Shown here: positions 7,274-56,321 of the stretch, in pieces
How positions within the stretch are numbered: the stretch's first letter is position 1
How the letters are laid out: each line of letters opens with the position of its first letter
Source: an uncultured Candidatus Saccharibacteria bacterium
Lineage (GTDB): Bacteria > Patescibacteriota > Minisyncoccia > Phycocordibacterales > DATDWN01
Length of the DNA: 64,000 nucleotides
Assembly: GCA_964576615.1 (NCBI GenBank)
Contig: CAZNUU010000001.1
Location: 164,226-228,225, forward strand
Direction: 5' to 3'
Notes under the pieces: model-generated
The model's database searches: none
Told to the model about the DNA's origin: nothing
Seen by the model: only the letters and a program-made list of their open reading frames with translations
Program-made: the position numbers and the translations under genes

Positions 7274-7864
7274 TTAGGTGAAGGCGAGATAGAGTGTGAC
7301 ACCGGAGAAAATCATGGCGGTGATTTGCACCCACCAAGAATTTTCCTGCATCAGCCTCTCGACCGCTGTTCCTGCTGCATCCTTGTGATGGATGCGCAGG
7401 TGGACCGTGAGACTCGCGATTTCCCAGAGCCCAACTGTTGTGGCCAGCCAACCGCCTGCCCCCAGATACCCCGTGAGATACCACGGGATGGCAAATGCCA
7501 GGAGAACAGGACAGAGAGACCAGGCCTTGAAGTGGCCGGGAATCCAGGGATCCGGAGTTCTGACTGCCCACTCCTTCAGGGCCTCCTTCATCGGATCACT
7601 CATAGGCACAACTGTCACCCCATTGCGATCGGCCAAATCGACCAGCTTCCACATTCTATCGGTCATCTCCCGACCGAAAAACCAGAGCTCGTCGACAAAG
7701 CGGCGCTCGAAGTACCTCTCCAGGTGATCCGAACTCACATCCTCAAGAAAGATCGGGGTTACGATCTCCCTGGAAGCCTGGAGGGCTTCCAGTTCACCCA
7801 TCATCCTTCTCTCGCTTAGGGAATTGCCGCCGGATTCGGCGACCATCACAATCTTCGTGGCCAT
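7274..7864 (-). CDS. hypothetical protein with a C-terminal TM region, in a GC-rich islet.
   Basis: 196-aa ORF in a GC-rich block within a low-GC backbone; ends in hydrophobic helices and is followed by a strong terminator. Confidence 0.45.
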   Translation of the reverse strand: MATKIVMVAESGGNSLSERRMMGELEALQASREIVTPIFLEDVSSDHLERYFERRFVDELWFFGREMTDRMWKLVDLADRNGVTVVPMSDPMKEALKEWAVRTPDPWIPGHFKAWSLCPVLLAFAIPWYLTGYLGAGGWLATTVGLWEIASLTVHLRIHHKDAAGTAVERLMQENSWWVQITAMIFSGVTLYLAFT

Positions 7865-10310: not shown

Positions 10311-10703
10311 CTATTTCTTCCTCGCCGTGACCGGTTTCTTTCTCTCCTCGAGAAGCTCGTAGACGATGTGCTCGTCAGAGTCCTTCGGTGGAGACTCGAA
10401 AAATTCGTCAGGCAATTCATCGTAAGTATCGTCTCTCATTGCCTGTCCTCGACTCCGACCCATTTCATCGGACCGGCGCCTGAGCTCCTTGGTGTCGAGC
10501 TTGCCGAGTTCAATCTTGCGAGCCCGATACCGCGTTTCCCTCTCGGCCCCACTTGTGGCGAACCTGCTCAAGCCGTCGAGATACCTCGAGATCTCGCCCT
10601 TGTGAGCAATGATCTTCTTTAGCTCCTCATCTGTCAGTTCGCGATCCTCGAGAAGGAGAGCAACAAAGCCACGCGCCCTCTTCCTTTCTTCTTCGTAGGA
10701 CAT
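10311..10703 (-). CDS. hypothetical highly charged protein in a GC-rich islet.
   Basis: 130-aa Arg/Glu-rich ORF in a GC-rich block. Confidence 0.4.
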   Translation of the reverse strand: MSYEEERKRARGFVALLLEDRELTDEELKKIIAHKGEISRYLDGLSRFATSGAERETRYRARKIELGKLDTKELRRRSDEMGRSRGQAMRDDTYDELPDEFFESPPKDSDEHIVYELLEERKKPVTARKK

Positions 10704-11142: not shown

Positions 11143-11693
11143 CTGACTATTATACTAGAACTGTTCTTTCTTCTCATTATGAAGTCGCCGTCGACTACTT
11201 TGCCTGTAAACTCAAATCCATAGGACTTGTAAAGTTTCTGAGCACCAATATTTTTCTCCCAGACATCCAGATATACATTCTGTGCTTTTTTTATTTGGTC
11301 GTAACCAAAGGCTTTGTCGAGCAGTTTTTTGCCAATTCCCATTTTCTGGTAATTTTGCAATACGTACAATCTCCGTATCTCTTGATCTCCTTCCTGAAAA
11401 TCGTCGGTAGGATAAGATGAGTCAATCGGACCAAACTCGCAATAACCAATCAGGATATCATTATCTTCCGCAACTATTGCAGTATTATCTTTCAAAGAAT
11501 CTGTAAAATATTTCTCTGAACGCCCCTCCTCCAAAGCAGCCTGTAAATCCTCAGGATTTTTAAAAGTATGTCCAAATGCATCCGTATAAGTCTTGGCTGC
11601 TAAAATAGCCAGATTCGGTATATCTTTTTCTGTAGCTTCCCTTGTTATCATTTTATCTATTGTACCAAACGAAATGCCGGGTAGCGCTTTCAC
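11139..11693 (-). CDS. GNAT family N-acetyltransferase.
   Basis: RRLYVLQNYQKMGIGKKLLDKA (acetyl-CoA binding motif A). Confidence 0.8.
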   Translation of the reverse strand: MKALPGISFGTIDKMITREATEKDIPNLAILAAKTYTDAFGHTFKNPEDLQAALEEGRSEKYFTDSLKDNTAIVAEDNDILIGYCEFGPIDSSYPTDDFQEGDQEIRRLYVLQNYQKMGIGKKLLDKAFGYDQIKKAQNVYLDVWEKNIGAQKLYKSYGFEFTGKVVDGDFIMRRKNSSSIIVR

Positions 11694-12307
11694 GCTACCC
11701 GGTTCTTAAAGTACTGTTCGTTGGCCGACTTGATCTGCCACGCGTCGGCGACAAACACCAGCGAGACTGCCTGTTGCAATGCAAGCCAGAAGTAGCCTTG
11801 CATGAACATGAGGATCCCAGCCGAAGCGTTCATGAGAAAGAACCAACCATACCCGTCGAGGTGATCTTTGGCGAGGCGGTAGGTCCCGACCAGGAAACCT
11901 ACCGTGACACCGAGCTCGACCCACTGACTCACGTGAATCATGAAGCCAAGCTTCCAGACACTGACAGCGACCCCGACGATTGCGGCCACAACCGCAAATC
12001 GATCGAGAATCTTCACTGACAGATCCCTGAACCAGCTCGGCTTCTTGTCCAGGCGCCGAAGCGCGAGAACAAGTCCGAGTACCATAGCCGGTGCGCCACC
12101 CGCTTCAACCAGAGTGACCATCAAATCGTTTTCACGGTAGAGGATCACCAGCCAAGCCGGCAGACCAACGATGTAGACCGCCCACGCCGCGATGTTCCAG
12201 AGACGCCATTCACGACCCTTCTCGGGTGACCTTTCCTTGCGGCTAAGGAAGATCTTGTTGAGAAGGTAGAAAACACCTCCCCAAGTCTGCAGTAATCCTG
12301 TGGTCAA
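11690..12307 (-). CDS. PnuC-like nicotinamide riboside/NMN transporter family membrane protein (GC-rich islet).
   Basis: Polytopic; GWFFLMNASAGILMFMQGYFWLA resembles the PnuC W-x-L-x-N...QG-Y signature. Confidence 0.4.
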   Translation of the reverse strand: MTTGLLQTWGGVFYLLNKIFLSRKERSPEKGREWRLWNIAAWAVYIVGLPAWLVILYRENDLMVTLVEAGGAPAMVLGLVLALRRLDKKPSWFRDLSVKILDRFAVVAAIVGVAVSVWKLGFMIHVSQWVELGVTVGFLVGTYRLAKDHLDGYGWFFLMNASAGILMFMQGYFWLALQQAVSLVFVADAWQIKSANEQYFKNRVA

Positions 12308-13450: not shown

Positions 13451-14632
13451 TTACTTGAGATCCAGATAGGAATTTATATAGTGCACAGCAAATCCCCCAA
13501 AACTACTGTAACCTTCAAATGCTGAAGCTAGATTTGTTTTTTGTTTATCTAAATAACTTTTATTCGTGCTGTAAAAAGTTACATAGGATGGCTGAACGTT
13601 TCCGGTCTCTTGGGCAATCACGACTTTTGTTTTAGCTAAGAGCGCATCTTTTATTTCTCCTTTTGAAATGTCTATCGAGCCATCGTCGCCTCGACTAAAA
13701 TTCCGGTATGACATAACAACTAGTTTACTGCCCGAACGTCTGTCCAGTACACGGAGTAAGTGATCAAATGTAAAACCGTTCTCCCCTCTATATGAATACT
13801 CGGGCGTCTCGTTGCTATCGCTATCATAAAAATCCGGCACAACCACAGAGAGTAGTAGGTCCGTATTGTTTAATTTCGCAACAGTTTGGTCAACCAGATT
13901 TACAAAATTATAGAGAGTAACTTGTTTATTCTCTTCGTACTGTGGTAGCAAATACGACTCAACATCATACTGAAACCCCCGAAACTTTTCCGGGTGACTT
14001 TTATTAAACGCGATCACATAATCCAAAACAGCCAGCGGTTTATAAAGATTGCCGAACTCGGCCCAGTTTTGCCAGCCAGCCTCGGCATCTACAGAAATGC
14101 CGTCTTTGTGAGCGTCAGCAATAAATTTTTCAACTGCATTATCAAAAGCTAATTTAGATTTGTCTCTTTTTTCTCCGTTAGGCATGAGAAAAATGTCCAA
14201 ATAGGAATCTATGGAAAGATAAATTGTCTTAATTCCATTTTGTTTAGCACCAGAAATAACAAACTCTTTATAGGCAGGGGTAATATCCATAACTGGTGTC
14301 CAAAGCCAAGTGCCCACCTCCTCTCCTCCATTTATATTGCCAGTATTGTTGGAAACCGAACTTATCACACTCGCCAAAAGCAGATTTTTGTCAAAAACCA
14401 CAGTGTCTTTATATTTCGTATTTGCCTCAGAAATGCTTTTTGGATAATGGATATCAGAGTACTGTCTTGGATAGTAAATTTTTTTCGCTGTTGTTTTAGG
14501 CAAGAGAGCAATCGCCGGTTTTGGCTTTGTAGATTTGAGCGAAACAATAAAAAATCCCCCCATGATAATCACAAAAGCTCCTGCCCAAATCAATCGTTCG
14601 AAACTTAATACAGATTTTTTGCTTTTTTTCAT
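13451..14632 (-). CDS. hypothetical membrane-anchored protein, possibly glycoside-hydrolase-like (TIM-barrel).
   Basis: 393 aa with N-terminal TM; alternating beta/alpha pattern with conserved acidic/aromatic positions. Weak call. Confidence 0.3.
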   Translation of the reverse strand: MKKSKKSVLSFERLIWAGAFVIIMGGFFIVSLKSTKPKPAIALLPKTTAKKIYYPRQYSDIHYPKSISEANTKYKDTVVFDKNLLLASVISSVSNNTGNINGGEEVGTWLWTPVMDITPAYKEFVISGAKQNGIKTIYLSIDSYLDIFLMPNGEKRDKSKLAFDNAVEKFIADAHKDGISVDAEAGWQNWAEFGNLYKPLAVLDYVIAFNKSHPEKFRGFQYDVESYLLPQYEENKQVTLYNFVNLVDQTVAKLNNTDLLLSVVVPDFYDSDSNETPEYSYRGENGFTFDHLLRVLDRRSGSKLVVMSYRNFSRGDDGSIDISKGEIKDALLAKTKVVIAQETGNVQPSYVTFYSTNKSYLDKQKTNLASAFEGYSSFGGFAVHYINSYLDLK

Positions 14633-15648
14633 TTTGCAATACTGACAAGAGCCAACTCAAGTGGCAGGGACTGAATATAGGCTCCGGTGGTTCTCTCGAG
14701 AGCGGTGAGAAGCTCGATTAAAACAGTCGAAGAGAATACTGTGTCCGTCTTTGATATATTACTCACAAACTCAAATTCTTTTTCTGATAAATCTTCCTTA
14801 ACCATACTCGTCTCTCCAAATCTAACCAAAAGTACAGCCCTGGCTGTATGTAAAATAAGCCTTAGAAAAACTGACATGTCGATATTTTGATTGGCCGCTT
14901 TCCTTACAGCACCGAGTCCCAGATCTAAATCCTTCGTTGATATAGAAGTTATGATGTCATGGACAAGTTCAATAGCGGGAGCGCCTGTAACTAAACGAAC
15001 TTCCTCTTCGGAAATTTTTTTATCTTTGGAATAATGAAGAATCTTTTGAACAATTCCCACCGTATCACGAAAAGATCCGTCCCCAAGTAATGCTACAAGC
15101 TCAGCTGATGGTTCGTCCATACTGTAGCCTTCTTTCTTAGCAACGGATATAGCCATTTTTTTAAGAAGATCTTGGCTTGGCTTTTTGAAAGTATAGACTT
15201 CGCAGCGAGACAAGACAGTTTCGGGGATTTTGTGAATTTCTGTTGTGGCAAGAATGAAAATTACATGGGAAGGTGGCTCCTCCAACGTTTTGAGAAGAGC
15301 GTTTGAAGCCGATTTCGAAAGCATGTGAACTTCGTCCAAAATATAGACTTTGTACTTGGATTCAAAAGGCAGAGTGAAAACAGACTCGTTTAGACTACGA
15401 ATGTCTTCCACAGAAGTATTGGATGCCGCGTCTATTTCGTAAATATCGTTTTTACTCGTACCTACTCCTGCAGCAAAAATTCTAGCTACGGATGTCTTCC
15501 CGGTTCCCCGGGTTCCGTAAAAAAGATAAGCGTGTGATATATTGCCGGACTTGGATTCTGCTTCGAGAACTTTAACAACATGATCTTGCCCAATTACATC
15601 AGAGAATTTAGTCGGCCTGTATTTTCTGTAGAGAGTTTGATTTTCCAT
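14629..15648 (-). CDS. dnaX: DNA polymerase III subunit gamma/tau (short form).
   Basis: YRKYRPTKFSDVIGQDHVVKVL, P-loop GTRGTGKTSVARIFA, ILDEVHMLS, and sensor LSRCEVYTF. Confidence 0.85.
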   Translation of the reverse strand: MENQTLYRKYRPTKFSDVIGQDHVVKVLEAESKSGNISHAYLFYGTRGTGKTSVARIFAAGVGTSKNDIYEIDAASNTSVEDIRSLNESVFTLPFESKYKVYILDEVHMLSKSASNALLKTLEEPPSHVIFILATTEIHKIPETVLSRCEVYTFKKPSQDLLKKMAISVAKKEGYSMDEPSAELVALLGDGSFRDTVGIVQKILHYSKDKKISEEEVRLVTGAPAIELVHDIITSISTKDLDLGLGAVRKAANQNIDMSVFLRLILHTARAVLLVRFGETSMVKEDLSEKEFEFVSNISKTDTVFSSTVLIELLTALERTTGAYIQSLPLELALVSIAK

Positions 15649-15665
15649 TGTCGAACTAAGTATAA

Positions 15666-15960
15666 CAATTTTTTTGAAACGAAAAATACCGTCAGAAAGA
15701 CGGCATCGGTCGGGCCACGTGAGATATCGAATTCAAGACATCTCACGTGGCAGGTCGCTTGTTACCGGACTTCTCCCTTCTGCGCCACGCGCCGATGGAG
15801 ATGCGGTGAGGCTAAGGACGGATCTGGGCCAAGACAGAAGCCCGCCTGGGCACATTCTGCCCCCAAATCTCCCACCTGACCGGAGCAAGGGCACGATTGC
15901 GGATTTTTGCCACCATTTTACTGGACTCGCCAGTACTACTGGTGTCTTATGGGGAGATGT
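15666..15960 (-). ncRNA. candidate structured RNA immediately upstream of dnaX, ending in an intrinsic terminator. Possibly SRP RNA by synteny; unproven.
   Basis: GC-rich, with an 11-bp perfect hairpin CCACGTGAGAT...ATCTCACGTGG (15705-15745) and a minus-strand terminator CCGTC-AGAAA-GACGG plus a T-run (15666-15703). A GGTCAGGT segment is only weakly SRP-like. Confidence 0.3.
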
Positions 15961-16035
15961 ATCCCAATCCCTCGCGCTCTCTCTTTCTATACAATCATCC
16001 TTTACGAAAAAAATGTCAAGACAATAAAGTTGTGG

Positions 16036-16320
16036 ATAAAAAGAAAAGCCCCGGCGCGGTTTTCTGCGCCGGGACCCGTTGTTCTTCTTGACTCCATGGT
16101 CTAAGCCCACTATTTTAATCAGGTTAGCGGGAACCTGCCGGGGCGACACGCCCTCGGTGAAATGTTCGCATTTTTCCAAGCCCGGAGCTCCACATTAGCC
16201 AGTAGATATCTCGCGGTGGATGAGCCAGCCTCTTCCTCTCTGCCGGTTTTATCCTAGTTATTCCGGCTCAGTGGGTGTGGCGTGCAATTGCCCAGCATCT
16301 GGGGATCACACAACCATGAC
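16036..16320 (-). ncRNA. candidate structured GC-rich RNA downstream of dus, ending in a strong intrinsic terminator.
   Basis: Minus-strand terminator CCCGGCGC-agaaaacc-GCGCCGGG plus CTTTTCTTTTTAT (16036-16073). A possible TTGACT-N16-TACCAT promoter lies near 16345. Contains AAGCCCGGAGCUCCACA, which resembles the RNase P P4/P5 string, but the motif order does not fit RNase P. Confidence 0.3.
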
Positions 16321-16365
16321 CAGTCCAGGAGCAATGGTAGCACAGTAGAAAATTAAGTCAATCTT

Positions 16366-17334
16366 TTATTTTGATGCCTCAATATAGTCATTTATTACTG
16401 CCTCGACTTCACCTCCGTTATTTGCTTCCATTAATTTCATGCGAAGCTCTTTTGAACCGTCGAAGCCAGCTACATATGCCTTAAAATGTTTTTTCATAAT
16501 TGAAAAACTTTTCTGAGACAATAATTCCTCAAATAATTTTGTATGTTCGATTAATACTCTAAGCCTTTCCTCTATTGAAATCTGATCTCGAGAAATATTT
16601 TTATCAAACAGCCATGGGTTACCAAAAATCGCCCTCCCCAACATAACTCCATCACAACCCGTCTCATCACACTTCCTCCTACCGTCGTCAATGTCTACGA
16701 CATCACCATTTCCAAAAATCAAAGTATCTTTTTTTAGTTCGTCTCTAATCTCTACTGCCCCCTTAACATACTCCCAGTTTGCTGGAACGTTTGACATCTC
16801 CTTCCGCGTCCTGGCATGAATAGTTATCACAGCCGGATTTACTTCCAGAAGTGCCGGTAGCCAGGTTTCTAATTCATTTTTATTGTAACCAACTCTCGTT
16901 TTCACACTAACTGGTAAATTTTTTCCATCTTTTTTAGCACCTTTCATTGCTGCCATAATTATTTCCTGGGCAAGTTTTGGATTTTTAATAAGTGCTGCTC
17001 CCCCACCTTGCTTCTCCACACTTTTATCAGGACAGCCCATATTTATATCGATACCGTCGAAACCAAGATCACAAGCAAGTTCAGTTGCTTTTTGCATCAT
17101 GTCTGGTTTACTTGTAAAAAACTGTGCCACAATTGGCCTTTCGGCATCGGTAAATGCCAGGTCTTTTATCAAATGCTCATAACCTCCCATAAAAAGTCCG
17201 TCGGCTGAGACAAACTCAGTCCACATTACATCCGGTTTGCCATACTTTGCGATGATACGTCGAAAAGCTGGATCCGTAACATCAGCCATTGGAGCTAGAA
17301 CCATTAGAGGTTTTCTTAGATTTTGCCAAAACAT
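16366..17334 (-). CDS. tRNA-dihydrouridine synthase.
   Basis: LAPMADVTDPAFRRI...DINMGCP...TIHARTR matches the Dus TIM-barrel signature. Confidence 0.85.
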   Translation of the reverse strand: MFWQNLRKPLMVLAPMADVTDPAFRRIIAKYGKPDVMWTEFVSADGLFMGGYEHLIKDLAFTDAERPIVAQFFTSKPDMMQKATELACDLGFDGIDINMGCPDKSVEKQGGGAALIKNPKLAQEIIMAAMKGAKKDGKNLPVSVKTRVGYNKNELETWLPALLEVNPAVITIHARTRKEMSNVPANWEYVKGAVEIRDELKKDTLIFGNGDVVDIDDGRRKCDETGCDGVMLGRAIFGNPWLFDKNISRDQISIEERLRVLIEHTKLFEELLSQKSFSIMKKHFKAYVAGFDGSKELRMKLMEANNGGEVEAVINDYIEASK

Positions 17335-17389: not shown

Positions 17390-18019
17390 ATGTCAAGAAA
17401 ACCAATGCTCGCCGTGATGGCGTCCGGAACAAAAACAGGCGGTGGCTCGGGTTTTGAGAATCTGGTCAAGGCTTCACGGGACGGCAGACTAGACGCTGCT
17501 ATCTTCGTCATTTCTAATCACGAAAATGGCGGAGTACGCGAAAGAGCCAACAAGCTCGGTGTTCCCTTCACCTACTTCCCTGGGCCATGGACCGCGGAGA
17601 ACTACCGCAAGATAACTGAAGGAGCTGATTTCGTAGCTCTTTCTGGTTGGCTCAAGATGGTTTATGGGCTTGATCCCAAGACAACATTCAACATCCACCC
17701 GGGACCACTTCCGAAATTTGGTGGTGACGGAATGTACAGTCACCATGTCCACGAGGCGGTGGTCAGCGCATATCGCAGAGGAGAGATCGCCGAATCAGCT
17801 GTGACAATGCACTTTGTGATCGAAGGTTACGACAAGGGACCGATCTTCTTCGCCGAGAAGGTAGAGATGAGGCCAGACGATACACCAGAGTCACTTCAGG
17901 TCCGTGTCAACATGGCGGAGCATAAATTTCAACCCTTGGTGACTCAAGCTGTGTTACGAGGCGAGGTCAGTTGGGATGGCAAGGATCCTTCCACGCTTGT
18001 ATCGCCGTATCATTTCTGA
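17390..18019 (+). CDS. formyltransferase-domain protein (PurN/GART-like), moderately GC-enriched.
   Basis: N-terminal Rossmann-like region and NIHPGPLPKFGG (PurN NIHPSLLP motif analogue), followed by a hairpin at 18024-18047. Confidence 0.55.
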   Translation: MSRKPMLAVMASGTKTGGGSGFENLVKASRDGRLDAAIFVISNHENGGVRERANKLGVPFTYFPGPWTAENYRKITEGADFVALSGWLKMVYGLDPKTTFNIHPGPLPKFGGDGMYSHHVHEAVVSAYRRGEIAESAVTMHFVIEGYDKGPIFFAEKVEMRPDDTPESLQVRVNMAEHKFQPLVTQAVLRGEVSWDGKDPSTLVSPYHF

Positions 18020-24000: not shown

Positions 24001-24291
24001 CTACTGGCGGCCAACTTTCAAAAGTTCGACACCGCAGATCGGACAGAACGGCCAGGAAAACTCAACCGCGACGAGATGTTCGTCAATTTCCTTTTCGGTT
24101 TCCCCTTCCGCCAGGTTGTGCCAGGTCGGACACCACCTCTTGCGTGCTTGCTCCAGAGTCGCATACCCTTCTGCATTTAGAGCCAGGATACTGAATCCCC
24201 CATTGCTCTTACCGCAATGCATACAGAAGGGACACCAATTCTCGAGCAAGTGTTCACAATGAGGACAGGTCGGAGACCTCATAGCCCTCAT
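24001..24291 (-). CDS. small zinc-ribbon protein (multiple CxxC) in a GC-rich islet.
   Basis: From MRAMRSPTCPHCEHLLENWCPFCMHCG...WPFCPICG; GC-rich. Confidence 0.35.
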   Translation of the reverse strand: MRAMRSPTCPHCEHLLENWCPFCMHCGKSNGGFSILALNAEGYATLEQARKRWCPTWHNLAEGETEKEIDEHLVAVEFSWPFCPICGVELLKVGRQ

Positions 24292-24395
24292 TGCTCCCTC
24301 GAGCTGTTTTTTGGTCAGTCTCAAATAAACCTCCGGTCTCAGATTAGCATGAAAAAATAATAGCAGAAAGTCCCGGCAGACCTTCTGCTCGGGAC

Positions 24396-24671
24396 CTAAT
24401 GAGTGGTATCGAGAACGACCTTGATTGGAGGCTGTGTGACGACGCCATCCTTGATGTACTTCACACATTCCTGCGGAAGTTGCCCTCCTTGAAGGCACGG
24501 GTTGAGAAACTTCCTCAACTCATCAGGGTAGACGAGCCCATCAGGCTTGCCGAGTGCCTGATAGGTGACATCAGAGTAGTGCTTGGGTGTGAGTCCCATC
24601 GCAACCTGAAAAACGAGGAGAAACGCAATGCCAATCACGAAACCAACAACCGCCGAAGCCATTCTGTTCAC
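24396..24671 (-). CDS. small membrane-anchored hypothetical protein in the same GC-rich islet.
   Basis: N-terminal TM (VVGFVIGIAFLLVFQVAMG) and a C-terminal Cys pair; an overlapping plus-strand ORF is the alternative reading. Confidence 0.3.
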   Translation of the reverse strand: MNRMASAVVGFVIGIAFLLVFQVAMGLTPKHYSDVTYQALGKPDGLVYPDELRKFLNPCLQGGQLPQECVKYIKDGVVTQPPIKVVLDTTH

Positions 24672-27322: not shown

Positions 27323-27862
27323 ATGCCAGAAAACTTGCAGGACCCGACCCCTCCCAAAAAAGAGCGTGGCAACGGAGCGAACGTCATCGCTGTAAATGAG
27401 GTCGGAGGTATTCTCCTCGTCAAACACAACTACGGAGGCGAGCAGTGGGGTCTTCCGGGCGGTGAAATTGAGCGAGGTGAGGCCCCGACTCACGCTGCTT
27501 GTGAAGAGACAGAGGAGGAATCGGGTCTGGTGATTGATCCTCACGATCTCAAACTCATCGGCTGGTTCATCCAGAGACCTAAGGGGGTCGTCTTCCTCTT
27601 CGAGACACGGAAGTACGCCGGGACCGTCATAACAGAACCGAACAACGAAGTCTCAGAGGCTCGCTTTATGAGCCTTAGAGAAATCGTTGACCTTGGCGAG
27701 AAAGTCGGTCTGGCCTATCGAAGAATGATTCTGCGGTATATCCGCTGCATCGAGAGGATCGACCCGATCCCCTACGAAGGACGGCTGGCAGATCCGGTCG
27801 AGTATCCGAAGGATCTTGTCTCGGGCGAGGGAAAGTTCGCCGACATTGTTCACCGAGTCTGA
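27323..27862 (+). CDS. Nudix hydrolase (GC-rich islet) with a non-canonical Nudix box.
   Basis: GGEIERGEAPTHAACEETEEESGL fits GX5EX7REUXEEXGU except that R-E is replaced by E-E. Confidence 0.55.
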   Translation: MPENLQDPTPPKKERGNGANVIAVNEVGGILLVKHNYGGEQWGLPGGEIERGEAPTHAACEETEEESGLVIDPHDLKLIGWFIQRPKGVVFLFETRKYAGTVITEPNNEVSEARFMSLREIVDLGEKVGLAYRRMILRYIRCIERIDPIPYEGRLADPVEYPKDLVSGEGKFADIVHRV

Positions 27863-28788: not shown

Positions 28789-29316
28789 CTACTTACGTAC
28801 AACCAAGCTGACAACAACCCCGAGGGGTTTGCGCTCTTTCCTCCTACGCCTCAACTCGTAATACATTCTCCGTGCTCGATCCGGGTTATGCTCTGGCAGC
28901 CCTCTTACTACCGCCGAGAGCACACTAACCTTGGTCCCAGCCCGGATGATTCTTTTGTATTCCGGGTCGAGGAAATAACCCATTTCCTCGATTGTTTCCT
29001 GAACCCGCCTTAGAGCAGTCGATGACTTTGCAAATGATTTGTCTTTTGCAATTGGCAACCAACCTGCCTGGGTAAACAACCCAATGACAGCTCGCTCTTG
29101 AGAGCGGTTCGTCCCCTTCCAGATTGCATTCAGGATGGAGAGCAAGAAATCCTCGGTGAGTGCGACCATGGTCTGTTCTCGCCGAGCCTCCCAGTTCTTG
29201 AGCCGCTTTTCTAAAGCTACACTGTCTCTCTCCTTTTGTTTTCTTGATTGACCCATTGAGCCCTCTCTAAAGCTGAGTTTGCGAGGAGAAACTATCCGTC
29301 GTATAGTCTTACACAA
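28789..29316 (-). CDS. hypothetical basic protein, moderately GC-enriched, upstream of tRNA-Leu(CAA).
   Basis: 175-aa ORF, Arg/Lys-rich; no motif recognised. Confidence 0.3.
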   Translation of the reverse strand: MCKTIRRIVSPRKLSFREGSMGQSRKQKERDSVALEKRLKNWEARREQTMVALTEDFLLSILNAIWKGTNRSQERAVIGLFTQAGWLPIAKDKSFAKSSTALRRVQETIEEMGYFLDPEYKRIIRAGTKVSVLSAVVRGLPEHNPDRARRMYYELRRRRKERKPLGVVVSLVVRK

Positions 29317-39091: not shown

Positions 39092-39430
39092 GGCGTAGTA
39101 GCCAAGTAGCATGAGCATAGCGAACTAGTAAAAAGCCAAGGGTCTGCATGCAGACAAATCTGAAATAATTTCAGATAATGAAGAACGAAGTAAATAGTGG
39201 CGTAGTAGCCAAGATAGCAAGGCAAAGGTCTGCAAAACCTTTATGCGGCGGCGCACATCCGCCCTACGCCTCCAGGCGAGGAAGCAAGCAAATTTATTTG
39301 CTTGCTTGCGGATGTGCGAGCCGCAGATATATTTTTTCAGTAGAAAAAATAATCGAGGCGGGGTCGCGAAATTTTGCAAGCGACGGCGAGCAAAATATTT
39401 GTGACCGCATCCGTCTTCGCATTTATATTT
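39092..39430 (+). repeat. GC-rich highly structured region with a tandem imperfect repeat, upstream of tRNA-Leu(TAA).
   Basis: GGCGTAGTAGCCAAGTAGCA...GGTCTGCA repeated at 39094 and 39198; palindrome GTCTGCATGCAGAC; hairpin ATCTGAAAT-aa-TTTCAGAT; 11-bp stem CGCACATCCGC...GCGGATGTGCG enclosing hairpin GCAAGCAAA-ttta-TTTGCTTGC. Confidence 0.4.
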
Positions 39431-42715: not shown

Positions 42716-43936
42716 ATGAATGGTGTGAGACCACAGCGACTTCCGGAGAGCCACGCGAAAGCGGCGCTCATCCTGATGGTCGCACTCGTGGTGAATCTGG
42801 CGCTTTTCGGGACAGCGGTCCTCATGATCCTCTTCGGAAGAAGTACGGGATCGTGGTGGGATACGCTTTCACAGGTCAACTTGGAAACGGGAGGGGTCTT
42901 GATCCTTCTCATCCAAGTCTTTCACGCTTTAAACAGCGTGAAGAACGTGAACCTCAACCAGCAGGCAATTCTGCTGCTGTTTGGGGCATTCGTGAAGTAC
43001 GTCGAGCCGGGGCTCATTTATGTGCCCTGGGGTTTCTGCAGGTTGCTTCGAGCGACCACCGAGACGATCGAGAAAGACGTCCCGGCAGACTCACGGTTCA
43101 TAGACCACAGCGATGTTACCGATCAGACCACCGGTGGAACGGGAGTAATCCGAAAGGGCTACTTCCCTCCCATTCGAGTGACCTTTGCACCAGCAAAGGC
43201 TGCGGAAACAATCGAGGTGGGCGGTGAGAGGATCACGATTCCGGCGGACGATCCCTACGGCAAGAGAAATACTGCCGAAGTGGAGTTCTCCTACGGTTTC
43301 GAGATCTACGACTACGCGCGAGTGGTAAAGCGGTTCGGCACTGACGATCCAATCGGCAAGGCCAAGAACCAGCTGGACGACGTCGGCATCGGAGTCGTAA
43401 ACGACGAGTTGTCGCGAATGACAACCGCCAGAGCGATGATGAGTCAATCAGCGGTAGCGAACAAGATCCGGGATACTCAGTCTACCGAATCGGCAGACTG
43501 GGGAGTTCAGATCCTCTTCGTTCGCTTGAAGCCGTTTGGGTTCAGTCACAAACTGAACACTGCGGTCAGACAAGCAGCGGAGTCGTTTGCGCTGAAACAG
43601 GCAGTCGTCGTCGCCTCAGAAGGCGAACGTGAGAGACTCACCAACGTCGGCACGGGCACAGCAGAAGCAGAACGTCTGCTTTTGGAGGCACGGGCCAAGG
43701 GTGAAGCGGCGCTCGCCAAGGTCGCAGAGACACCTGGTGGCAAGTACGCCATGGCGGTCCGAGAAATCGGGCAGGCTGTGACGGCTGCCAGGGCAGTCGT
43801 CGTTCCGGGAGATAATCTCCTCGGAGCGGTGGCAAGTGCTGCGGCACTGGTCAAACAAGTCGGTGACGTAACGGAAACCGGCACAACCGGCTCAGCAAGC
43901 GGAAGCAACACGCGACCGCCTGCATCGAGACCATGA
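42716..43936 (+). CDS. SPFH/band-7 (stomatin/flotillin-like) membrane protein, strongly GC-rich.
   Basis: N-terminal TM, then AILLLFGAFVKYVEPGLIYVPWGFCRLL...(SPFH core) and a flotillin-like Ala/Glu coiled coil ERLLLEARAKGEAALAKVAE. Confidence 0.6.
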   Translation: MNGVRPQRLPESHAKAALILMVALVVNLALFGTAVLMILFGRSTGSWWDTLSQVNLETGGVLILLIQVFHALNSVKNVNLNQQAILLLFGAFVKYVEPGLIYVPWGFCRLLRATTETIEKDVPADSRFIDHSDVTDQTTGGTGVIRKGYFPPIRVTFAPAKAAETIEVGGERITIPADDPYGKRNTAEVEFSYGFEIYDYARVVKRFGTDDPIGKAKNQLDDVGIGVVNDELSRMTTARAMMSQSAVANKIRDTQSTESADWGVQILFVRLKPFGFSHKLNTAVRQAAESFALKQAVVVASEGERERLTNVGTGTAEAERLLLEARAKGEAALAKVAETPGGKYAMAVREIGQAVTAARAVVVPGDNLLGAVASAAALVKQVGDVTETGTTGSASGSNTRPPASRP

Positions 43937-43946
43937 GGTGTGAGAG

Positions 43947-44714
43947 ATGATCATCGCAGCGGTCGTCGTGGTGCTCGCAGCCATTTACATTTGGCTGCGA
44001 GCACAACAAGATCGAGACAGCAGAGGTATTGCGCGGGAGAGGCAGGAAGCCCCTCCCGACCAGGCAGATACGCCCCCGCAACCCGAAAGGGATGCGGATG
44101 GCGACTTCCCTTGGTACAAGTGGTGGAAGAGGCCCGGGTGGTGGAAAGAGAACATCTTTACCATTCCACTCGGAATCCTCCTCGGCCACATCATCGTCGC
44201 TGTCGCGACTCCAGATTTGTACTTCGAGTACATCTGGAGTTCGTGGCAGTTCTGGGCGCTGCAAGCGGTGATCGTTATCGCCGCCTGGATGATTCCGCAA
44301 GGAAATGTCCAGTACCATCCGAAGCTTGGCAAGATCATTGTCGTTACCGCTCTGCTAGCTGTTGTATATGTCTGGGGAAACAAAGCCCTGGATGATGCAC
44401 AGAAAAGCGCAGCGGCATCGAACAATGCTCAAGCCAGCTCATCGACCCAGAACACCCCGCCACCGAACAACGGAGGCAGGATCGTGATCACCGCCCCGCC
44501 GGTCTCGCAAGAGCCGACGGGTCGCATCGCACTACCACCGAGAGCCGTGCTCTCGGCGAACAAGCCGTTCACAATTTTTCAACTCGACGAGAGGGGAAAA
44601 GAGGCCTCCTACGACGGAGGTCCGGGCATGGAGGGGGTTCATCTCCCGCCATCTCCCTACGCCAGGTTCCGGTCAAAATCAGAAGAACCGGTCCTGATAA
44701 CCTTCATCCAGTAA
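43947..44714 (+). CDS. polytopic membrane protein, possible NfeD-like SPFH partner, GC-rich.
   Basis: 4 TM helices plus a C-terminal soluble beta-rich segment; followed by terminator CCCCCCCGCA-tacg-TGCGGGGGGG (44742-44765). Confidence 0.35.
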   Translation: MIIAAVVVVLAAIYIWLRAQQDRDSRGIARERQEAPPDQADTPPQPERDADGDFPWYKWWKRPGWWKENIFTIPLGILLGHIIVAVATPDLYFEYIWSSWQFWALQAVIVIAAWMIPQGNVQYHPKLGKIIVVTALLAVVYVWGNKALDDAQKSAAASNNAQASSSTQNTPPPNNGGRIVITAPPVSQEPTGRIALPPRAVLSANKPFTIFQLDERGKEASYDGGPGMEGVHLPPSPYARFRSKSEEPVLITFIQ

Positions 44715-48923: not shown

Positions 48924-49352
48924 TTACCTATCGCAACTGACGATGACACCGGCACTTCTCTTTTCGCCGACGAAGGCCTGACAGGTGATAGAGACCCCGT
49001 CTACCTTTATCGTAAGAAGTATCATGTTGACAACTCCGCCGGGGCGACGCTTGCCTTTGACCCTCTGCCACCTTTCGTTGATGGGAACATCCAGAGCTTT
49101 GTCGAAGTCGTGGTACGAGACCTCGACGGCGTCGAGACCACGGTGGACATGGTCATCCAGAATCTCGAATCCGCCCTGACCATCGTTTCGAACGATGACC
49201 AATTCACGTGAGAATTCGATCGCAACCATGTTACCGGCAGCGATTGAACCCATCGAATCCGACGTGTACACGAAGCTTTTGGTCGAGTCCGTAGCAGGGC
49301 TCTCGATGCAGGCACTCATGGCCAGAACCAGAGATACAAGGATCAATCTCAT
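48924..49352 (-). CDS. putative lipoprotein, strongly GC-rich islet.
   Basis: Signal peptide with lipobox-like LAMSAC; a beta-rich body. Confidence 0.35.
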   Translation of the reverse strand: MRLILVSLVLAMSACIESPATDSTKSFVYTSDSMGSIAAGNMVAIEFSRELVIVRNDGQGGFEILDDHVHRGLDAVEVSYHDFDKALDVPINERWQRVKGKRRPGGVVNMILLTIKVDGVSITCQAFVGEKRSAGVIVSCDR

Positions 49353-53098: not shown

Positions 53099-53164
53099 AG
53101 TTTATCAAGAAAAGTCTCGATGGCAAGGTTTGACAGAAAATTTCACTTAAGTATCATTGAACCC

Positions 53165-53483
53165 GGAAGGGGTAGGAAGAAAACAATAGTGATTCCCCAT
53201 GGGAAACCTGGGGCTTACAAAACAGCCCAAACCTGAGGCAAACCGGAGTAATCCGCGAGAACCGCAGGGGTTGTAGGATCCCGCAAAGTCCCGCTTCGTT
53301 TGGTAGGGACTAAGGAGTTACCAACCGGCTCGACCGGCTCCCGCGCGATACCTGAGTAATGATCTGTCACCGCATGCGGGGCAGAGGCATGAAACCACGT
53401 GACGAGGACAATTCGCACGTAAGGCTAAACTGACCCCCTTCCAGCTAATGCGGCGCGCAATGTGTGCGCCGTTTTCTTTTTTC
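53165..53483 (+). ncRNA. candidate GC-rich structured ncRNA with its own promoter and intrinsic terminator (family unknown).
   Basis: Promoter TTGACA-N16-TATCAT at 53130-53157. P1-like closure CCGGAAGGGG (53163) with CCCCTTCCAG (53434-43). Internal hairpins CCCCATGG-gaaa-CCTGGGG and GGGCT-uacaaaaca-GCCC. Terminator GGCGCGCA-atg-TGTGCGCC plus GTTTTCTTTTTTC (53452-53483). The string AAAGUCCCGCUUC...GUAGGGAC is weakly RNase-P-like. Confidence 0.35.
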
Positions 53484-53532
53484 TTTATTTAAAGTGTTTC
53501 AAATTCAATATTTGACATAATTATATAAATGT

Positions 53533-53775
53533 GTGAGTATTGACCATAGAGAGGAGATGCTGATGGCCAAGGAAGATCGTGGTTTTGCGTCGATGGATTC
53601 GAAGAAGCAGCGAGAAATCGCGAGCAAAGGTGGGAGAGCGGCACACGAGAAAGGTACCGCCCACGAGTGGGACGCGAACGAAGCTCGTGAAGCAGGTCGC
53701 AAAGGCGGCCACGAAACCCAGAAACGTCGGAAAAAGCAGGGTCTACCAGCGTGGATCAGGAAGAAGAAAAAATAA
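53533..53775 (+). CDS. KGG-repeat general stress protein (YciG-like), GC-rich.
   Basis: ASKGGRAAHEKG...AGRKGGHETQKRR are KGG motifs; terminator at 53788-53819. Confidence 0.5.
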   Translation: MSIDHREEMLMAKEDRGFASMDSKKQREIASKGGRAAHEKGTAHEWDANEAREAGRKGGHETQKRRKKQGLPAWIRKKKK

Positions 53776-53966
53776 GTTCGGTACCGAGGCGGCGTGCAAC
53801 GTGCGCGCCGCTTTTGTTTGCACAAATACCTATGACTTAGAACCAACGACACTAATGCTACAATATACTGTAGCATTAGAGATAATGACTTTTTATAAAT
53901 GAAGTCGAATATATTAAAACAAGAAAAGGTTCGACTCGGAGAGCGTCTAACCCCCCTTGTCGAACC

Positions 53967-54293
53967 TTACTTTTTCGAAAACTTCACGTGTCGGAACTCC
54001 TCACTCCGGAATCGGCCGATGTCCGATTCGGAGATCCCCTCTTGTTTCATTGCCTCTTCGAGGGCGGACCCCTTGGCAAGGCTTCGGCTGAAGAAGCCTG
54101 AGAGCTCGTCGAGGGAAACTTCCTCGCCGGCGAGGACCTTCTTCGCCGTTCTTGCCTGGGTCCGCCGATCTGCCTCTTGAGCCTTCTTCAGCCCCGGAAC
54201 GGCGATCGCTGCGATGATTCCGACAAACAGGATGACGATGAGAAACTCGATCAGGGTGAATCCTTTGATCGAACGCGCACGAGAAACTGTCAT
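53967..54293 (-). CDS. type IV pilin/pseudopilin-like protein (prepilin N-terminal methylation motif), GC-rich.
   Basis: MTVSRARSIKG|FTLIEFLIVILFVGIIAAIAVP is a class III signal peptide; GGAGG RBS before this Met; terminator hairpin AGGTTCGAC...GTCGAACCT downstream. Confidence 0.5.
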   Translation of the reverse strand: MTVSRARSIKGFTLIEFLIVILFVGIIAAIAVPGLKKAQEADRRTQARTAKKVLAGEEVSLDELSGFFSRSLAKGSALEEAMKQEGISESDIGRFRSEEFRHVKFSKK

Positions 54294-54404
54294 CTCAACC
54301 TCCTCCACCTTTATACCACCAGTATTTAATATGTCAAGCTATCCAAACTTCCTCATTTTTGTATACTTAAAGCCGTATTTTATTAGCCACTATATACGCT
54401 AAAT

Positions 54405-55571: not shown

Positions 55572-55605
55572 AAATGAGAAGGGGCGGCATCGGCCGCCCT
55601 TTTTC

Positions 55606-55863
55606 TTATGCCTCCAGCCTACGCAGGAGACTGCCATGCACCGAAAGAGCAACTCGCCCTTCGGGCGTCCAGATCGTGACATGATAACTGCCTGCCCCCA
55701 TCTCCATCAGATGATCGAGTGCAGACTCTGCTGTCACGAAGTGACCGTCGATTCTCGTTGTCGCTGACTGAGCCACCATTCGAAAAGGAGCTGGTGACAT
55801 CGGCAAGTGACAATCTGGATCAGGTGTCATCTCTCCTGGTCTACGCGGTCCAATTGGTGCCAT
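55606..55863 (-). CDS. hypothetical protein in a GC-rich islet (uncertain).
   Basis: 85-aa ORF in a GC-rich block; overlapping alternative frames exist. Confidence 0.2.
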   Translation of the reverse strand: MAPIGPRRPGEMTPDPDCHLPMSPAPFRMVAQSATTRIDGHFVTAESALDHLMEMGAGSYHVTIWTPEGRVALSVHGSLLRRLEA

Positions 55864-55931
55864 AATCCCCCCAAATTGAATCCTAACATAAGCATTTTGA
55901 GCGCACGACTTTCATCGTGCGCTCTCGTGTC

Positions 55932-56321
55932 TTACCCGACTACATGAAGATTGTCGTGTTCGTCATCTTGCGGAGGAGCTGACCTTCCACCTCGAAGTGC
56001 ATCACCCTCAGCACGGACTCTGGCAACTCTGGCTTCAACCCTCCTCTGCTGCCGTCGGATGTGAGCAACGACGCTCGCCACCTCACCACTCAGCAGATGT
56101 GGGCTGTATGTGTAGATCGTGCTTTGCTGGGCTTGCCAGAGCTCCGCGATGGCATCGTGGTTCTCTGGGATCTTCGTCGCCAAGATCAATTTGGCCAGGA
56201 TGTTCATGGCATTCGCAGTATTTGCCTGCGGTATGACATTAGTGATTGAGAGATGGAACGGCTTGGTACCGTCATCATCCATCACATCTTTTCCTTGACC
56301 GAGAAAAACTCCGTCACTCAT
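55932..56321 (-). CDS. hypothetical protein in a GC-rich islet (uncertain).
   Basis: 129-aa ORF; an overlapping plus-frame ORF is the alternative reading. Confidence 0.25.
   Translation of the reverse strand: MSDGVFLGQGKDVMDDDGTKPFHLSITNVIPQANTANAMNILAKLILATKIPENHDAIAELWQAQQSTIYTYSPHLLSGEVASVVAHIRRQQRRVEARVARVRAEGDALRGGRSAPPQDDEHDNLHVVG

What the first reader, a model, noticed from the sequence alone, without database searches (positions are those of the whole stretch)
15649..16365. About 700-nt GC-rich structured spacer between dnaX and dus containing two minus-strand terminator-bounded candidate RNAs
The spacer is non-coding; the listed 148-aa ORF is implausible. It has two GC-rich blocks (15690-15960 and 16075-16340) split by an AT-rich stretch. 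Each block ends in a minus-strand intrinsic terminator: CCGTC-agaaa-GACGG plus T-run at 15666-15703, directly before the dnaX ATG, and CCCGGCGC-N8-GCGCCGGG plus T-run at 16036-16073. In many bacteria the SRP RNA gene (ffs/scr) lies immediately upstream of dnaX on the same strand, so the 15690-15960 block is a candidate long-form SRP RNA; it has a GGUCAGGU segment but not the full GGAA helix-8 motif. The 16075-16340 block contains AAGCCCGGAGCUCCACAUUAGCCA, which resembles RNase P P4/P5, but the motif order does not fit RNase P.
Basis: partly seen in the sequence, partly recalled or inferred. Interest (0 to 1): 0.55.

Follow-up and report, generated by a model that had tools for sequence, protein, structure and literature searches.

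The report
Two unclassified structured RNA genes
The gap between dus and dnaX in this Parcubacteria (candidate phyla radiation) genome holds two separate, strongly folded non-coding RNA genes of about 300 nt that match no known RNA family, including the proposed SRP RNA and RNase P RNA, but have fast-evolving counterparts at the same place in related genomes.

Summary
Window 15649-16365 is non-coding and has two GC-rich blocks, each ending in a minus-strand intrinsic terminator. The organism is a Zambryskibacteria-like Parcubacterium.

Rfam 15 gives no SRP, RNase P, tmRNA or 6S match in the spacer, even at E<=10, and none in the equivalent regions of relatives. ARAGORN finds no tmRNA. There is no SRP helix-8 motif and no RNase P CR-I motif.

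I read the spacer as two stand-alone RNA genes. RNA-A (~16327->16037) follows a TTGACT-16-TACCAT promoter. RNA-B (~15985->15676) is followed by dnaX's own extended -10 promoter.

Both fold better than shuffles (z -3.0 and -4.7). Neither has detectable nucleotide homologs in 103 related loci. Each does share motifs and helices with a lineage-specific RNA at the same position:
- RNA-A has the 12-mer GGCUCAUCCACC next to a covarying helix.
- RNA-B has a CCACG...CGUGG hairpin followed by CCCGAYCRA and a terminator.

Function is unknown. The most likely role is trans-acting, protein-binding or compactly folded stable RNAs. A heavily diverged SRP RNA (RNA-B) is an unexcluded minority reading.

The parts
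16334..16361 (-). Promoter-like site for RNA-A: TTGACT, 16-nt spacer, TG, TACCAT. It starts right after the dus stop codon.
   Evidence: 9 of 12 matches, TG before the -10. The -35 and spacer (TTGACTTAATTTTCTACTGTG) resemble the conserved promoter CTTGACTTATTTT...TATGAT in front of the first RNA in L005, L007, L010, L013, L019, L022, L028, L048 and L071.
16037..16327 (-). RNA-A, a predicted transcript of about 290 nt (ends inferred, not mapped). It is a multibranched fold closed by pairing of the 5' GACUGGUCAUGG with the 3' CCAUGGAGUC.
   Evidence: Fold of 16040-16330: -111.5 kcal/mol, z = -3.04, 2 of 200 shuffles as good. No coding signal. No Rfam hit.
16170..16248 (-). Conserved core of RNA-A: GAGAGGAAGAGGCU-GGCUCAUCCACC-[helix and insert]-CGGGCUUGG. 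The 12-mer lies at 16215-16226.
   Evidence: The exact 12-mer GGCUCAYCYACC also occurs in the first RNA of L005, L007, L013, L032 and L071, with one chance match elsewhere in about 0.64 Mb. The flanking helix is 91.7% paired, and 3 of its 7 pairs change on both sides. Model R2 scores the window at 53 bits; the window is one of the seed sequences. R2 also finds non-seed members: L041 (E 3e-4), L038 (6e-4) and L025 (0.02). In the window itself this helix has 2 internal mismatches.
16036..16077 (-). Intrinsic terminator of RNA-A: GGGUCCCGGCGC-AGAAAACC-GCGCCGGGGCUU followed by UUCUUUUUAU.
   Evidence: 12 pairs, 9 of them G-C.
15986..16019 (-). Promoter region of RNA-B inside the AT-rich stretch. 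The -35 TTGACA is at 16014-16019. The -10 is uncertain (GATTGT, TTGTAT or TATAGA).
   Evidence: Read from the sequence; one-mismatch match to CTTGACWTAWWWW. It did not pass the two-hexamer scan, so the start of RNA-B is the least certain boundary.
15676..15985 (-). RNA-B, a predicted transcript of about 300 nt. It has a lineage-specific 5' extension, a helix GGUGGG/CCUCACC enclosing a hairpin, a short hairpin GCGC-GUG-GCGC flanked by AGAAGGGAG, then GUAACAAG, a long 3' hairpin and the terminator.
   Evidence: Fold of 15676-15990: -133.9 kcal/mol, z = -4.65, 0 of 100 shuffles as good. Short patches are shared with the closest relative L002: CCCAGAUC[CU]GUC, UAGCCUCAC, GUAACAAG and the CCGUC...GACGG terminator.
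15706..15750 (-). 3' module of RNA-B: a perfect 15-bp hairpin (CCACGUGAGAUGUCU-UGAAUUCG-AUAUCUCACGUGG) followed by CCCGACCGA.
   Evidence: The pattern CCACG-N6-36-CGTGG-N0-1-CCCGAYCRA occurs once in the window, against 0 in 100 shuffles. Among 224 fetched loci it occurs only at the equivalent spot of the RNA in front of dnaX in L007, L032 and L054, plus L001, which is the same genome. CCACG..CGUGG hairpins occur only in these spacer RNAs.
15676..15707 (-). Intrinsic terminator of RNA-B: GAUGCCGUC-UUUCU-GACGGUAUU followed by UUUCGUUUCA.
   Evidence: 9 pairs. It is homologous to the terminator in L002 (79% identity over 47 nt).
15659..15667 (-). dnaX's own extended -10 promoter element (TGTTATACT), 10 nt before the ATG at 15648. 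It implies a leaderless or near-leaderless dnaX mRNA.
   Evidence: TGnTATACT lies 6-10 nt before the dnaX ATG, always downstream of a terminator hairpin, in most of the 51 related genome loci. That this is the start of transcription is an inference.
15733..16179 (-). A 148-aa ORF that a gene caller called on the Logan copy. It is spurious and is not part of the feature.
   Evidence: No GC periodicity, no Pfam hit, no homolog apart from its own copy. It spans terminator A and promoter B.

Best explanation
The spacer carries two independent genes for stable, structured non-coding RNAs on the minus strand: RNA-A (~16327->16037) and RNA-B (~15985->15676). Each has its own promoter-like site and its own intrinsic terminator. 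They are separate from dnaX, which has its own extended -10 promoter directly after terminator B.

RNA-A and RNA-B are fast-evolving members of two lineage-specific RNA families that occupy the dus-dnaX spacer in Zambryskibacteria-like Parcubacteria. I call these families 'RNA 1' (just after dus) and 'RNA 2' (just before dnaX). Neither family is in Rfam.

Inferred mode of action: they work in trans as compactly folded RNAs or as scaffolds for proteins. The likely functional surfaces are the elements that stay constant while the helices around them covary:
- in RNA-A, the apparently single-stranded GGCUCAUCCACC and the downstream GGCUUGG;
- in RNA-B and its relatives, a purine-rich internal loop (AGGUAAUG / CUGCAAAG in relatives, which from memory resembles an expanded tetraloop receptor), an AGUAG/CUGA junction, and the CCACG hairpin with its CCCGAYCGA tail.

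Shown: the gene boundaries by sequence signals, non-coding status, excess folding energy, absence of any known-family match, and shared motifs and covarying helices in relatives. Inferred: that the RNAs are transcribed, that they act in trans, and that they bind protein or fold into a tertiary structure.
For: Signals:
- Promoter and both terminators.
- dnaX promoter conserved downstream of a terminator in most related loci.

Non-coding status.

Structure:
- z = -4.65 and -3.04 against dinucleotide shuffles.

Families:
- Many related loci have GC-rich, terminator-bounded blocks upstream of dnaX.
- RNA 1 core: the 12-mer is shared by the window and five other loci. The flanking helix is 91.7% paired, falling to 48-55% when the partner is slid by one column, with compensatory changes in 3 pairs. 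Model R2 finds further members.
- RNA 2: on L007, L054, L032 and L071, 36 pairs are 88.6% paired, 11 pairs change on both sides, and 0 of 500 shuffles reach this. The window shares the 3' module uniquely.

Not required in cis for dnaX:
- In L032 and L071 a small ORF lies between RNA 2 and dnaX.
- In L004, L006, L016, L017, L025 and L053 a Zn-ribbon ORF takes the place of RNA 2.
- L002 lacks RNA 1.

No known family.
Against: - There are no expression data.
- The -10 element of RNA-B's promoter is poor, so its 5' end is uncertain.
- The window's RNAs have no statistically detectable homolog by blastn, nhmmer or tblastx.
- Model R1, built from four RNA 2 members, does not find RNA-B. RNA-B's membership therefore rests on position, motif order and the 3' module.
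- In RNA-A the family's covarying helix has two mismatches.
- The covariation counts rest on only 4-8 related sequences.
- Function is not established. A ~300-nt RNA directly upstream of dnaX is where ffs lies in Firmicutes and Actinobacteria (my own knowledge), and I could not show a canonical SRP RNA elsewhere in this genome.
Confidence: 0.6

Rival explanations
1. RNA-B is this lineage's SRP RNA (ffs), so diverged that the Rfam models and the usual helix-8 consensus no longer recognise it.
For: - Position and strand directly upstream of dnaX, which is the classical ffs-dnaX arrangement in Firmicutes and Actinobacteria (my own knowledge, not tested here).
- Size of about 300 nt, with its own promoter and terminator.
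- In relatives, RNA 2 has a 5' helix enclosing two hairpins, followed by a long irregular hairpin with conserved internal loops near its tip. This loosely resembles an Alu domain plus helix 5/8.
- No canonical SRP RNA was seen in the 64-kb window or in about 260 kb of related loci.
Against: - No match to Bacteria_small_SRP or Bacteria_large_SRP at E<=10 in the window, L010, L027 or L007.
- No GNRA tetraloop with an AGG/AGCA loop.
- Extreme sequence turnover between genomes whose DnaX is 90% identical, which is unlike SRP RNA.
- RNA 2 is missing from the spacer in several relatives.
- There is an extra 3' hairpin module, and the fold is not a single rod.
- The loci sampled all come from one region, so the absence of ffs there says little.
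Confidence: 0.1
2. RNA-A and/or RNA-B is another diverged housekeeping RNA: RNase P RNA, 6S RNA or tmRNA.
For: - RNA-A has a closing helix between its 5' and 3' ends and a multibranched fold.
- It carries short strings that recall RNase P CR-I and CR-V (GAGGAAGAGGCUGGCUC and GGGCUUAG).
- The sizes are within range of reduced RNase P RNAs (my own knowledge).
Against: - No RNase P, 6S or tmRNA model match even at E<=10.
- ARAGORN is negative.
- The CR-I-like and CR-V-like strings cannot form helix P4, and their order does not fit RNase P (inspection).
- GAGGAAAGUCC with up to 2 mismatches is absent from the spacer.
- RNA 1 is absent from the spacer of the closest relative L002 and appears to be tandemly duplicated in L038.
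- The folds are not rod-like, as a 6S RNA would be.
Confidence: 0.07
3. The blocks are cis-acting elements rather than RNA genes in their own right. RNA-A would be a structured 3' UTR of dus. RNA-B would be a leader with an attenuator, or an insulator, that sets dnaX expression by read-through or promoter occlusion.
For: - All the elements lie on the same strand as dus and dnaX.
- Terminator B ends about 10 nt before dnaX's -10 element.
- A terminator followed by the dnaX promoter recurs across relatives.
- RNA-B's own promoter is weak by consensus.
Against: - A strong, conserved TTGACT...TATGAT promoter precedes the first RNA, right after the dus stop codon.
- dnaX has its own conserved extended -10 element.
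- Other genes separate RNA 2 from dnaX in L032 and L071 or replace it in six loci, and RNA 1 is absent in L002.
- No riboswitch or T-box model matches.
- There is no overlap between terminator and an antiterminator: the long hairpin and the terminator are separate.
Confidence: 0.1
4. The blocks are non-functional GC-rich DNA: decayed remnants of the GC-rich accessory genes that litter this genome, or of a mobile element.
For: - The window holds many GC-rich insertions between core genes.
- The spacer sequences have no nucleotide homologs.
- The content of the spacer varies between relatives.
Against: - Promoter and terminators are intact.
- Folding energy is well beyond that of composition-matched shuffles.
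- Motifs are shared and helices covary with RNAs at the same position in other genera.
- There is no residual protein similarity.
- There are no repeats of the spacer elsewhere in the window.
Confidence: 0.08

Closest known systems
Bacterial SRP RNA (ffs/scr; Rfam RF00169 small type, RF01854 large Bacillus type)
   Same: - It lies immediately upstream of dnaX on the same strand.
- It is a stand-alone gene with a promoter and an intrinsic terminator.
- Its size of about 300 nt is like the large type.
- In relatives, a 5' helix encloses two hairpins and is followed by a long irregular hairpin with conserved internal loops.
   Different: - No covariance-model match.
- No helix-8 GNRA tetraloop or AGG/AGCA loop.
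- It is not a single rod with paired ends.
- It has an extra CCACG hairpin plus CCCGAYCGA module before the terminator.
- Sequence turnover is far faster than for SRP RNA.
- It is absent from the spacer in several relatives.
Bacterial RNase P RNA (RF00010, RF00011)
   Same: RNA-A is multibranched, with a helix pairing its 5' and 3' ends. It has short strings that recall CR-I and CR-V.
   Different: - No model match.
- No P4 pairing.
- The motif order is wrong.
- It is only about 290 nt long.
- Family members are missing or duplicated in relatives.
Orphan structured ncRNAs found as GC-rich intergenic regions in AT-rich genomes (for example OLE, raiA, ROOL, GOLLD and the Breaker-laboratory motif classes)
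   Same: - GC-rich intergenic islands in a 42% GC genome.
- Complex folds with covarying helices and conserved loops.
- Narrow phylogenetic range.
- No known function.
- Palindromic apical loops in some members, which could mediate self-association.
   Different: - No sequence or structure match to any of these families in Rfam 15.
- They are smaller (about 300 nt).
- Two different families lie in tandem at a fixed locus.
- Primary-sequence divergence is unusually fast.

Membership tests
SRP RNA (RF00169 / RF01854) | Significant match to the family covariance model | tested here: not met
   No hit at gathering score or at E<=10 on 15550-16450. None in relatives.
SRP RNA (RF00169 / RF01854) | Helix 8 with a GNRA tetraloop and the conserved AGG / AGCA symmetric loop (the Ffh binding site) | tested here: not met
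   The pattern search finds no consistent match upstream of dnaX in the window or in 51 loci. GGUYCGRAAGGAAGCAG with up to 3 mismatches is absent from the spacer. The GGUCAGGU in RNA-B is not followed by a tetraloop helix.
SRP RNA (RF00169 / RF01854) | Gene immediately upstream of dnaX (a synteny typical of Firmicutes and Actinobacteria, not a defining feature) | tested here: met
   RNA-B ends 28 nt before the dnaX ATG on the same strand. That this synteny marks ffs is my own background knowledge.
SRP RNA (RF00169 / RF01854) | Binding to Ffh and one essential copy per genome | not testable with these tools
   Only 64 kb of the genome is available, and there is no biochemistry.
RNase P RNA (RF00010 / RF00011) | Covariance-model match, and the CR-I (GAGGAAAGUCC) and CR-V strands forming helix P4 | tested here: not met
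   No model hit. GAGGAAAGTCC with up to 2 mismatches has no match in 15649-16365. The look-alike strings in RNA-A cannot pair with each other (inspection).
tmRNA | tRNA-like domain with a T-arm and CCA end, plus a tag reading frame | tested here: not met
   ARAGORN finds none in the spacer or in the whole window. No Rfam hit.
6S RNA (RF00013) | Model match; a rod of about 180-200 nt with a large central bubble | tested here: not met
   No Rfam hit. The minimum-energy and centroid folds are multibranched, and the RNAs are about 290-310 nt long.
Riboswitch / T-box / leader attenuator of dnaX | A known aptamer or leader model; the terminator competes with an antiterminator; the element is obligatorily linked in cis to the regulated gene | tested here: not met
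   No model hit. The terminator is a separate hairpin. dnaX has its own promoter. The linkage is broken in L032, L071 and six other loci.
Protein-coding gene (148-aa ORF) | Codon-position bias, homologs, and no internal transcription signals | tested here: not met
'RNA 1' family of the dus-dnaX spacer (defined here) | GAAAGGAG-like stretch, then GGCUCAYCYACC, a covarying helix and GGCU(A/U)GG; located after dus behind a TTGACT promoter | tested here: met
   The window is one of the sequences the model was built from, and its helix has 2 mismatches.
'RNA 2' family of the dus-dnaX spacer (defined here) | A 5' helix enclosing hairpins; a rod with conserved internal loops; a CCACG..CGUGG hairpin followed by CCCGAYCRA; a terminator in front of the dnaX promoter | tested here: inconclusive
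   The 3' module and the position are met, and patches are shared with L002. Model R1 does not detect RNA-B, the second hairpin is missing, and the rod is much reduced in the window.

The most novel reading that the evidence does not exclude
RNA-A and RNA-B, possibly together with a third similar unit at 53163-53485 (+), belong to previously undescribed classes of compactly folded ~300-nt RNAs specific to Paceibacteria/Parcubacteria. The pointers are conserved loops that resemble tertiary-contact motifs, a shared 3' hairpin module and, in some members, palindromic apical loops. Together these suggest a dedicated RNP or a self-associating RNA with a function not yet known in bacteria. An even more surprising sub-case is that RNA-B is the lineage's SRP RNA with a remodelled Ffh-binding site (about 0.1).
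Probability: 0.45. Interest if true: 0.7.

Novelty: new member of a known kind. Interest (0 to 1): 0.55.

Why it matters
Candidate phyla radiation bacteria make up a large share of bacterial diversity, yet their non-coding RNA repertoire is almost unexplored. I found no paper describing these RNAs.

If these are real RNAs, a fixed locus in Zambryskibacteria-like genomes encodes two unclassified structured RNA families that keep their architecture while their sequence turns over very fast. That makes them good material for covariation-based structure determination and for asking what such small-genome symbionts need them for.

The result also carries a practical warning. The ffs-dnaX synteny rule cannot be carried over to this phylum without a model match. 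Gene callers also place a spurious 148-aa protein on this spacer.

Tried and rejected
- **Rfam.** Whole window at gathering score. Permissive scans of the spacer, L010 (19), L027 (36), L007 (76) and window 53100-55950 (86). Gathering scans of 36 related loci (14, 54). Only tRNAs and chance or terminator-type hits were found.
- **ARAGORN**: no tmRNA.
- **Sequence searches.** blastn, nhmmer and tblastx of the spacer against 103 related loci found only the same genome, plus a 47-nt terminator match to L002.
- **k-mer search** for motifs shared by all upstream regions: none.
- **SRP helix-8 and RNase P CR-I pattern searches**: negative.
- **RNase P reading of L002's CUGUCUUUGACAGAACUAGCCUCA** as P18 plus the P4 3' strand: rejected, because ACAGAAC is not conserved in the other members and no P4 partner exists.
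- **Split, permuted or two-piece RNase P or tmRNA:** the motif order does not fit any rotation.
- **tRNA gene interrupted by a group I intron:** there is no acceptor or T-arm sequence at either end.
- **Small-ORF or SD reading of GAAAGGAG:** there is no consistent start codon or reading frame.
- **Complement of the RNA-A 12-mer as a target site in the window**: no more matches than chance.
- **Model R1** (four RNA 2 members) reached only L023 (E 0.003), with L012 and L013 marginal, and missed the window.
- **RNAalifold on a 7-sequence MAFFT alignment** failed because of indels.
- **A 14-mer scan of viral contigs** gave only chance-level hits and was ignored.
- **Palindromic-loop (kissing-dimer) idea:** only 3 of about 10 distinct hairpins show it, so it is kept only as a note.
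- **Literature searches** found nothing on these RNAs.
Full report
**Context.** DnaX homologs identify the organism as a Parcubacteria/Zambryskibacteria-like member of the candidate phyla radiation. The window averages 42% GC. On the minus strand the order of genes is dus (16366-17334), the 717-nt spacer, dnaX (14629-15648; 339 aa), and a 393-aa ORF that overlaps the dnaX stop codon. An independent Logan assembly carries the identical spacer, so it is not an assembly artefact.

**The observation.** All the descriptive claims hold.
- GC rises to 0.61 and 0.55 in two blocks separated by a dip.
- The 148-aa ORF is not credible. It crosses terminator A and promoter B. It has flat codon-position GC (0.55/0.52/0.51), whereas genuine GC-rich genes of this window have GC2 about 0.4 and GC3 of 0.54-0.69. 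It has no Pfam hit and no homolog among 5.8 billion proteins other than its own copy. tblastx finds nothing in relatives.

Both blocks fold far better than dinucleotide shuffles: RNA-B z = -4.65 and RNA-A z = -3.04.

**Transcription-unit anatomy.**
- A TTGACT-16-(TG)TACCAT promoter-like site starts directly after the dus stop codon. Its -35 and spacer resemble a strongly conserved promoter (CTTGACTTATTTT...TATGAT) in front of the first spacer RNA in many relatives.
- RNA-A then runs about 290 nt to terminator A.
- The AT-rich stretch holds a TTGACA -35 and a poor -10 for RNA-B.
- RNA-B runs about 300 nt to terminator B.
- Right after terminator B comes TGTTATACT, 10 nt before the dnaX ATG. The arrangement 'hairpin, U-run, A-rich stretch, TGnTATACT, 6-10 nt, ATG' recurs in most of the 51 related genome loci.

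So dnaX has its own promoter and a leaderless or near-leaderless mRNA (an inference), and the RNAs are separate units.

**Test of the proposed identities.**
- Rfam 15 finds only tRNAs in the window.
- A permissive scan of 15550-16450 at E<=10 gives only weak hits that rest on the terminator.
- ARAGORN finds no tmRNA.
- The positionally equivalent RNAs of relatives are equally unmatched.
- A pattern for the SRP helix-8 site and a near-consensus search find nothing relevant.
- The RNase P CR-I consensus is absent from the spacer.

**Comparative evidence.** I fetched 51 genome loci and 52 metagenome loci around DnaX relatives. The spacer RNAs have no detectable nucleotide homolog in any of them. 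This includes L002, whose DnaX is 90% identical. No 8- or 9-mer is shared across the upstream regions.

Even so, many loci have one or two GC-rich, terminator-bounded blocks between dus and dnaX. Reading them side by side shows two recurring RNA types.

*'RNA 1' (after dus).* Its core is GAAAGGAG, then GGCUCAUCCACC, a helix with a variable insert, and GGCU(A/U)GG.
- The exact 12-mer GGCUCAYCYACC is present in RNA-A (16215-16226) and in L005, L007, L013, L032 and L071. There is one stray match in about 0.64 Mb.
- The adjoining helix covaries: CCCAGU/ACUGGG, CCAAGUU/AACUUGG and CCCAA[UC]/AGUUGGG. It is 91.7% paired, against 48-55% when slid by one column.
- A model of this core finds further members in L041, L038 and L025.

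*'RNA 2' (before dnaX).* Its parts, in order, are:
- a helix enclosing two hairpins joined by AUC;
- an AGUAG...CUGA-flanked helix that covaries (AGCG/CGCU, GGCGG/CCGCC, GUAGAU/AUCUAC, GCAGA/UCUGC);
- a rod with a conserved internal loop AGGUAAUG / CUGCAAAG around a covarying helix;
- a long perfect CCACGG...CCGUGG hairpin;
- CCCGAUCGA and a terminator.

On four members, 36 pairs are 88.6% paired and 11 of them change on both sides.

*RNA-B compared with RNA 2.* RNA-B shares the 3' module uniquely. With L002 it shares CCCAGAUC[CU]GUC, UAGCCUCAC, GUAACAAG and the terminator. It has lost the second hairpin, has a much shorter rod and carries a 5' extension of about 110 nt. A model built from four members does not detect it. 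RNA-A's family membership is therefore well supported, and RNA-B's is probable but not proven.

**What they are not in cis.** The content of the spacer varies between genomes.
- L002 has only RNA 2.
- L005 has only RNA 1.
- L032 and L071 have a small basic ORF between RNA 2 and dnaX.
- L004, L006, L016, L017, L025 and L053 have a small Zn-ribbon ORF where RNA 2 would be.
- L038 seems to have two RNA 1 cores in tandem.

This argues against an obligatory leader or attenuator role for dnaX. It also argues, though more weakly, against single-copy essential housekeeping RNAs fixed at this site.

**Interpretation.** The best-supported reading is two stand-alone genes for stable structured RNAs of lineage-specific families that are not in Rfam.

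What stays constant while the helices covary are loops and junctions. That is the pattern expected for protein-binding or tertiary-contact surfaces. The AGGUAAUG/CUGCAAAG loop resembles, from memory, an expanded 11-nt tetraloop receptor, and the AGUAG/CUGA junction resembles a loop-E-type motif. Both comparisons are leads, not tests.

I therefore favour trans-acting RNP scaffolds or compactly folded RNAs (confidence 0.6 for 'novel stand-alone structured ncRNA genes'). The specific biochemical role is unknown.

The main rival is a radically diverged SRP RNA for RNA-B (about 0.1). It is kept alive by the synteny prior and by a loosely SRP-like layout. It fails every feature that could be tested here.

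**Broader note.** The same window holds at least one further unit of the same style at 53163-53485 (+). It has an 11/12 promoter match, a terminator, a closing helix between its 5' and 3' ends, z = -3.0 and no Rfam match. Unknown ~300-nt RNAs may therefore be a general feature of this genome.

Most other GC-rich islands of the window, by contrast, are small accessory protein genes with clear coding periodicity.

**Limits.**
- There are no expression data.
- Only 64 kb of the genome is available.
- The alignments hold 4-8 sequences, and some helices were placed by hand.
- The ffs-dnaX synteny and the motif resemblances come from my own knowledge.

Noticed in passing
window 53130-53485 (+): A third candidate ncRNA gene. 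It has a TTGACA-16-TATCAT promoter (11 of 12 matches) at 53130-53157 and a terminator at 53450-53472 followed by a T-run. The unit is about 320 nt, with no ORF showing coding periodicity. It folds at z = -3.0 with a closing helix GGAAGGGGU/ACCCCCUUCC. It contains CCCGCAAAGUC, the same 11-mer as in L007's RNA 2. There is no Rfam match.
   Followed up: partly
window 55572-55935 (-): A GC-rich (0.54) gap that folds at z = -3.5. It begins with a perfect 11-bp hairpin and ends at a hairpin (55582-55599) that could terminate transcripts from both strands. Its 85-aa ORF lacks the GC3 bias of real genes here. Whether it is an RNA or a small protein is unresolved.
   Followed up: partly
window 7274-7864, 10311-10703, 11690-12121, 17390-18019, 24001-24468, 27323-27862, 28789-29256, 42716-44714, 48924-49352, 53967-54293, 55932-56321: Many short genes with GC of 0.51-0.57 lie between core genes of GC 0.35-0.43. 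They show coding-type GC3 bias. A few have Pfam hits (NUDIX, Band 7/SPFH, formyl transferase), but most have none. They look like a population of compositionally foreign accessory genes inserted between core genes, including within a block of consecutive minus-strand genes that I did not annotate.
   Followed up: partly
window 15646-15667 and the dnaX starts of L002-L052: dnaX is preceded by TGnTATACT only 6-10 nt before the ATG, with no Shine-Dalgarno sequence, in most related loci. This suggests leaderless or near-leaderless dnaX mRNAs across this clade.
   Followed up: partly
window 13451-14632 (-): A 393-aa ORF with no Pfam hit overlaps the stop codon of the short (339-aa) dnaX by 4 nt. 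It might be a separately encoded C-terminal part of the tau subunit.
   Followed up: no
L004, L006, L016, L017, L025, L053, L077 (between the first spacer RNA and dnaX); L032 and L071 (between RNA 2 and dnaX): A small Zn-ribbon ORF, with a ...FERQM... motif in several loci, occupies the slot that RNA 2 holds in other genomes. In L032 and L071 a small, very basic ORF sits between RNA 2 and dnaX. The dus-dnaX spacer is a hot spot of variable small genes.
   Followed up: no
L038 2950-3310: Two RNA 1-type cores appear to lie in tandem. The model detects only the second (E 6e-4). The first was seen by eye.
   Followed up: no
window 15722-15733 (loop of the RNA-B hairpin); L007, L054, L032 and L071 hairpin loops: The apical loops of the CCACG hairpin carry different 6-nt palindromes: GAAUUC in the window, GAGCUC in L007/L054/L032 and UGGCCA in L071. 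The loop of the rod's apical helix is ACCGGU or ACUCGAGU. This is compatible with kissing-loop self-association, but only about 3 of 10 distinct hairpins show it.
   Followed up: partly
window 39199-39274 (+): ARAGORN calls a tRNA-Cys here that the Rfam gathering-score scan did not list.
   Followed up: no
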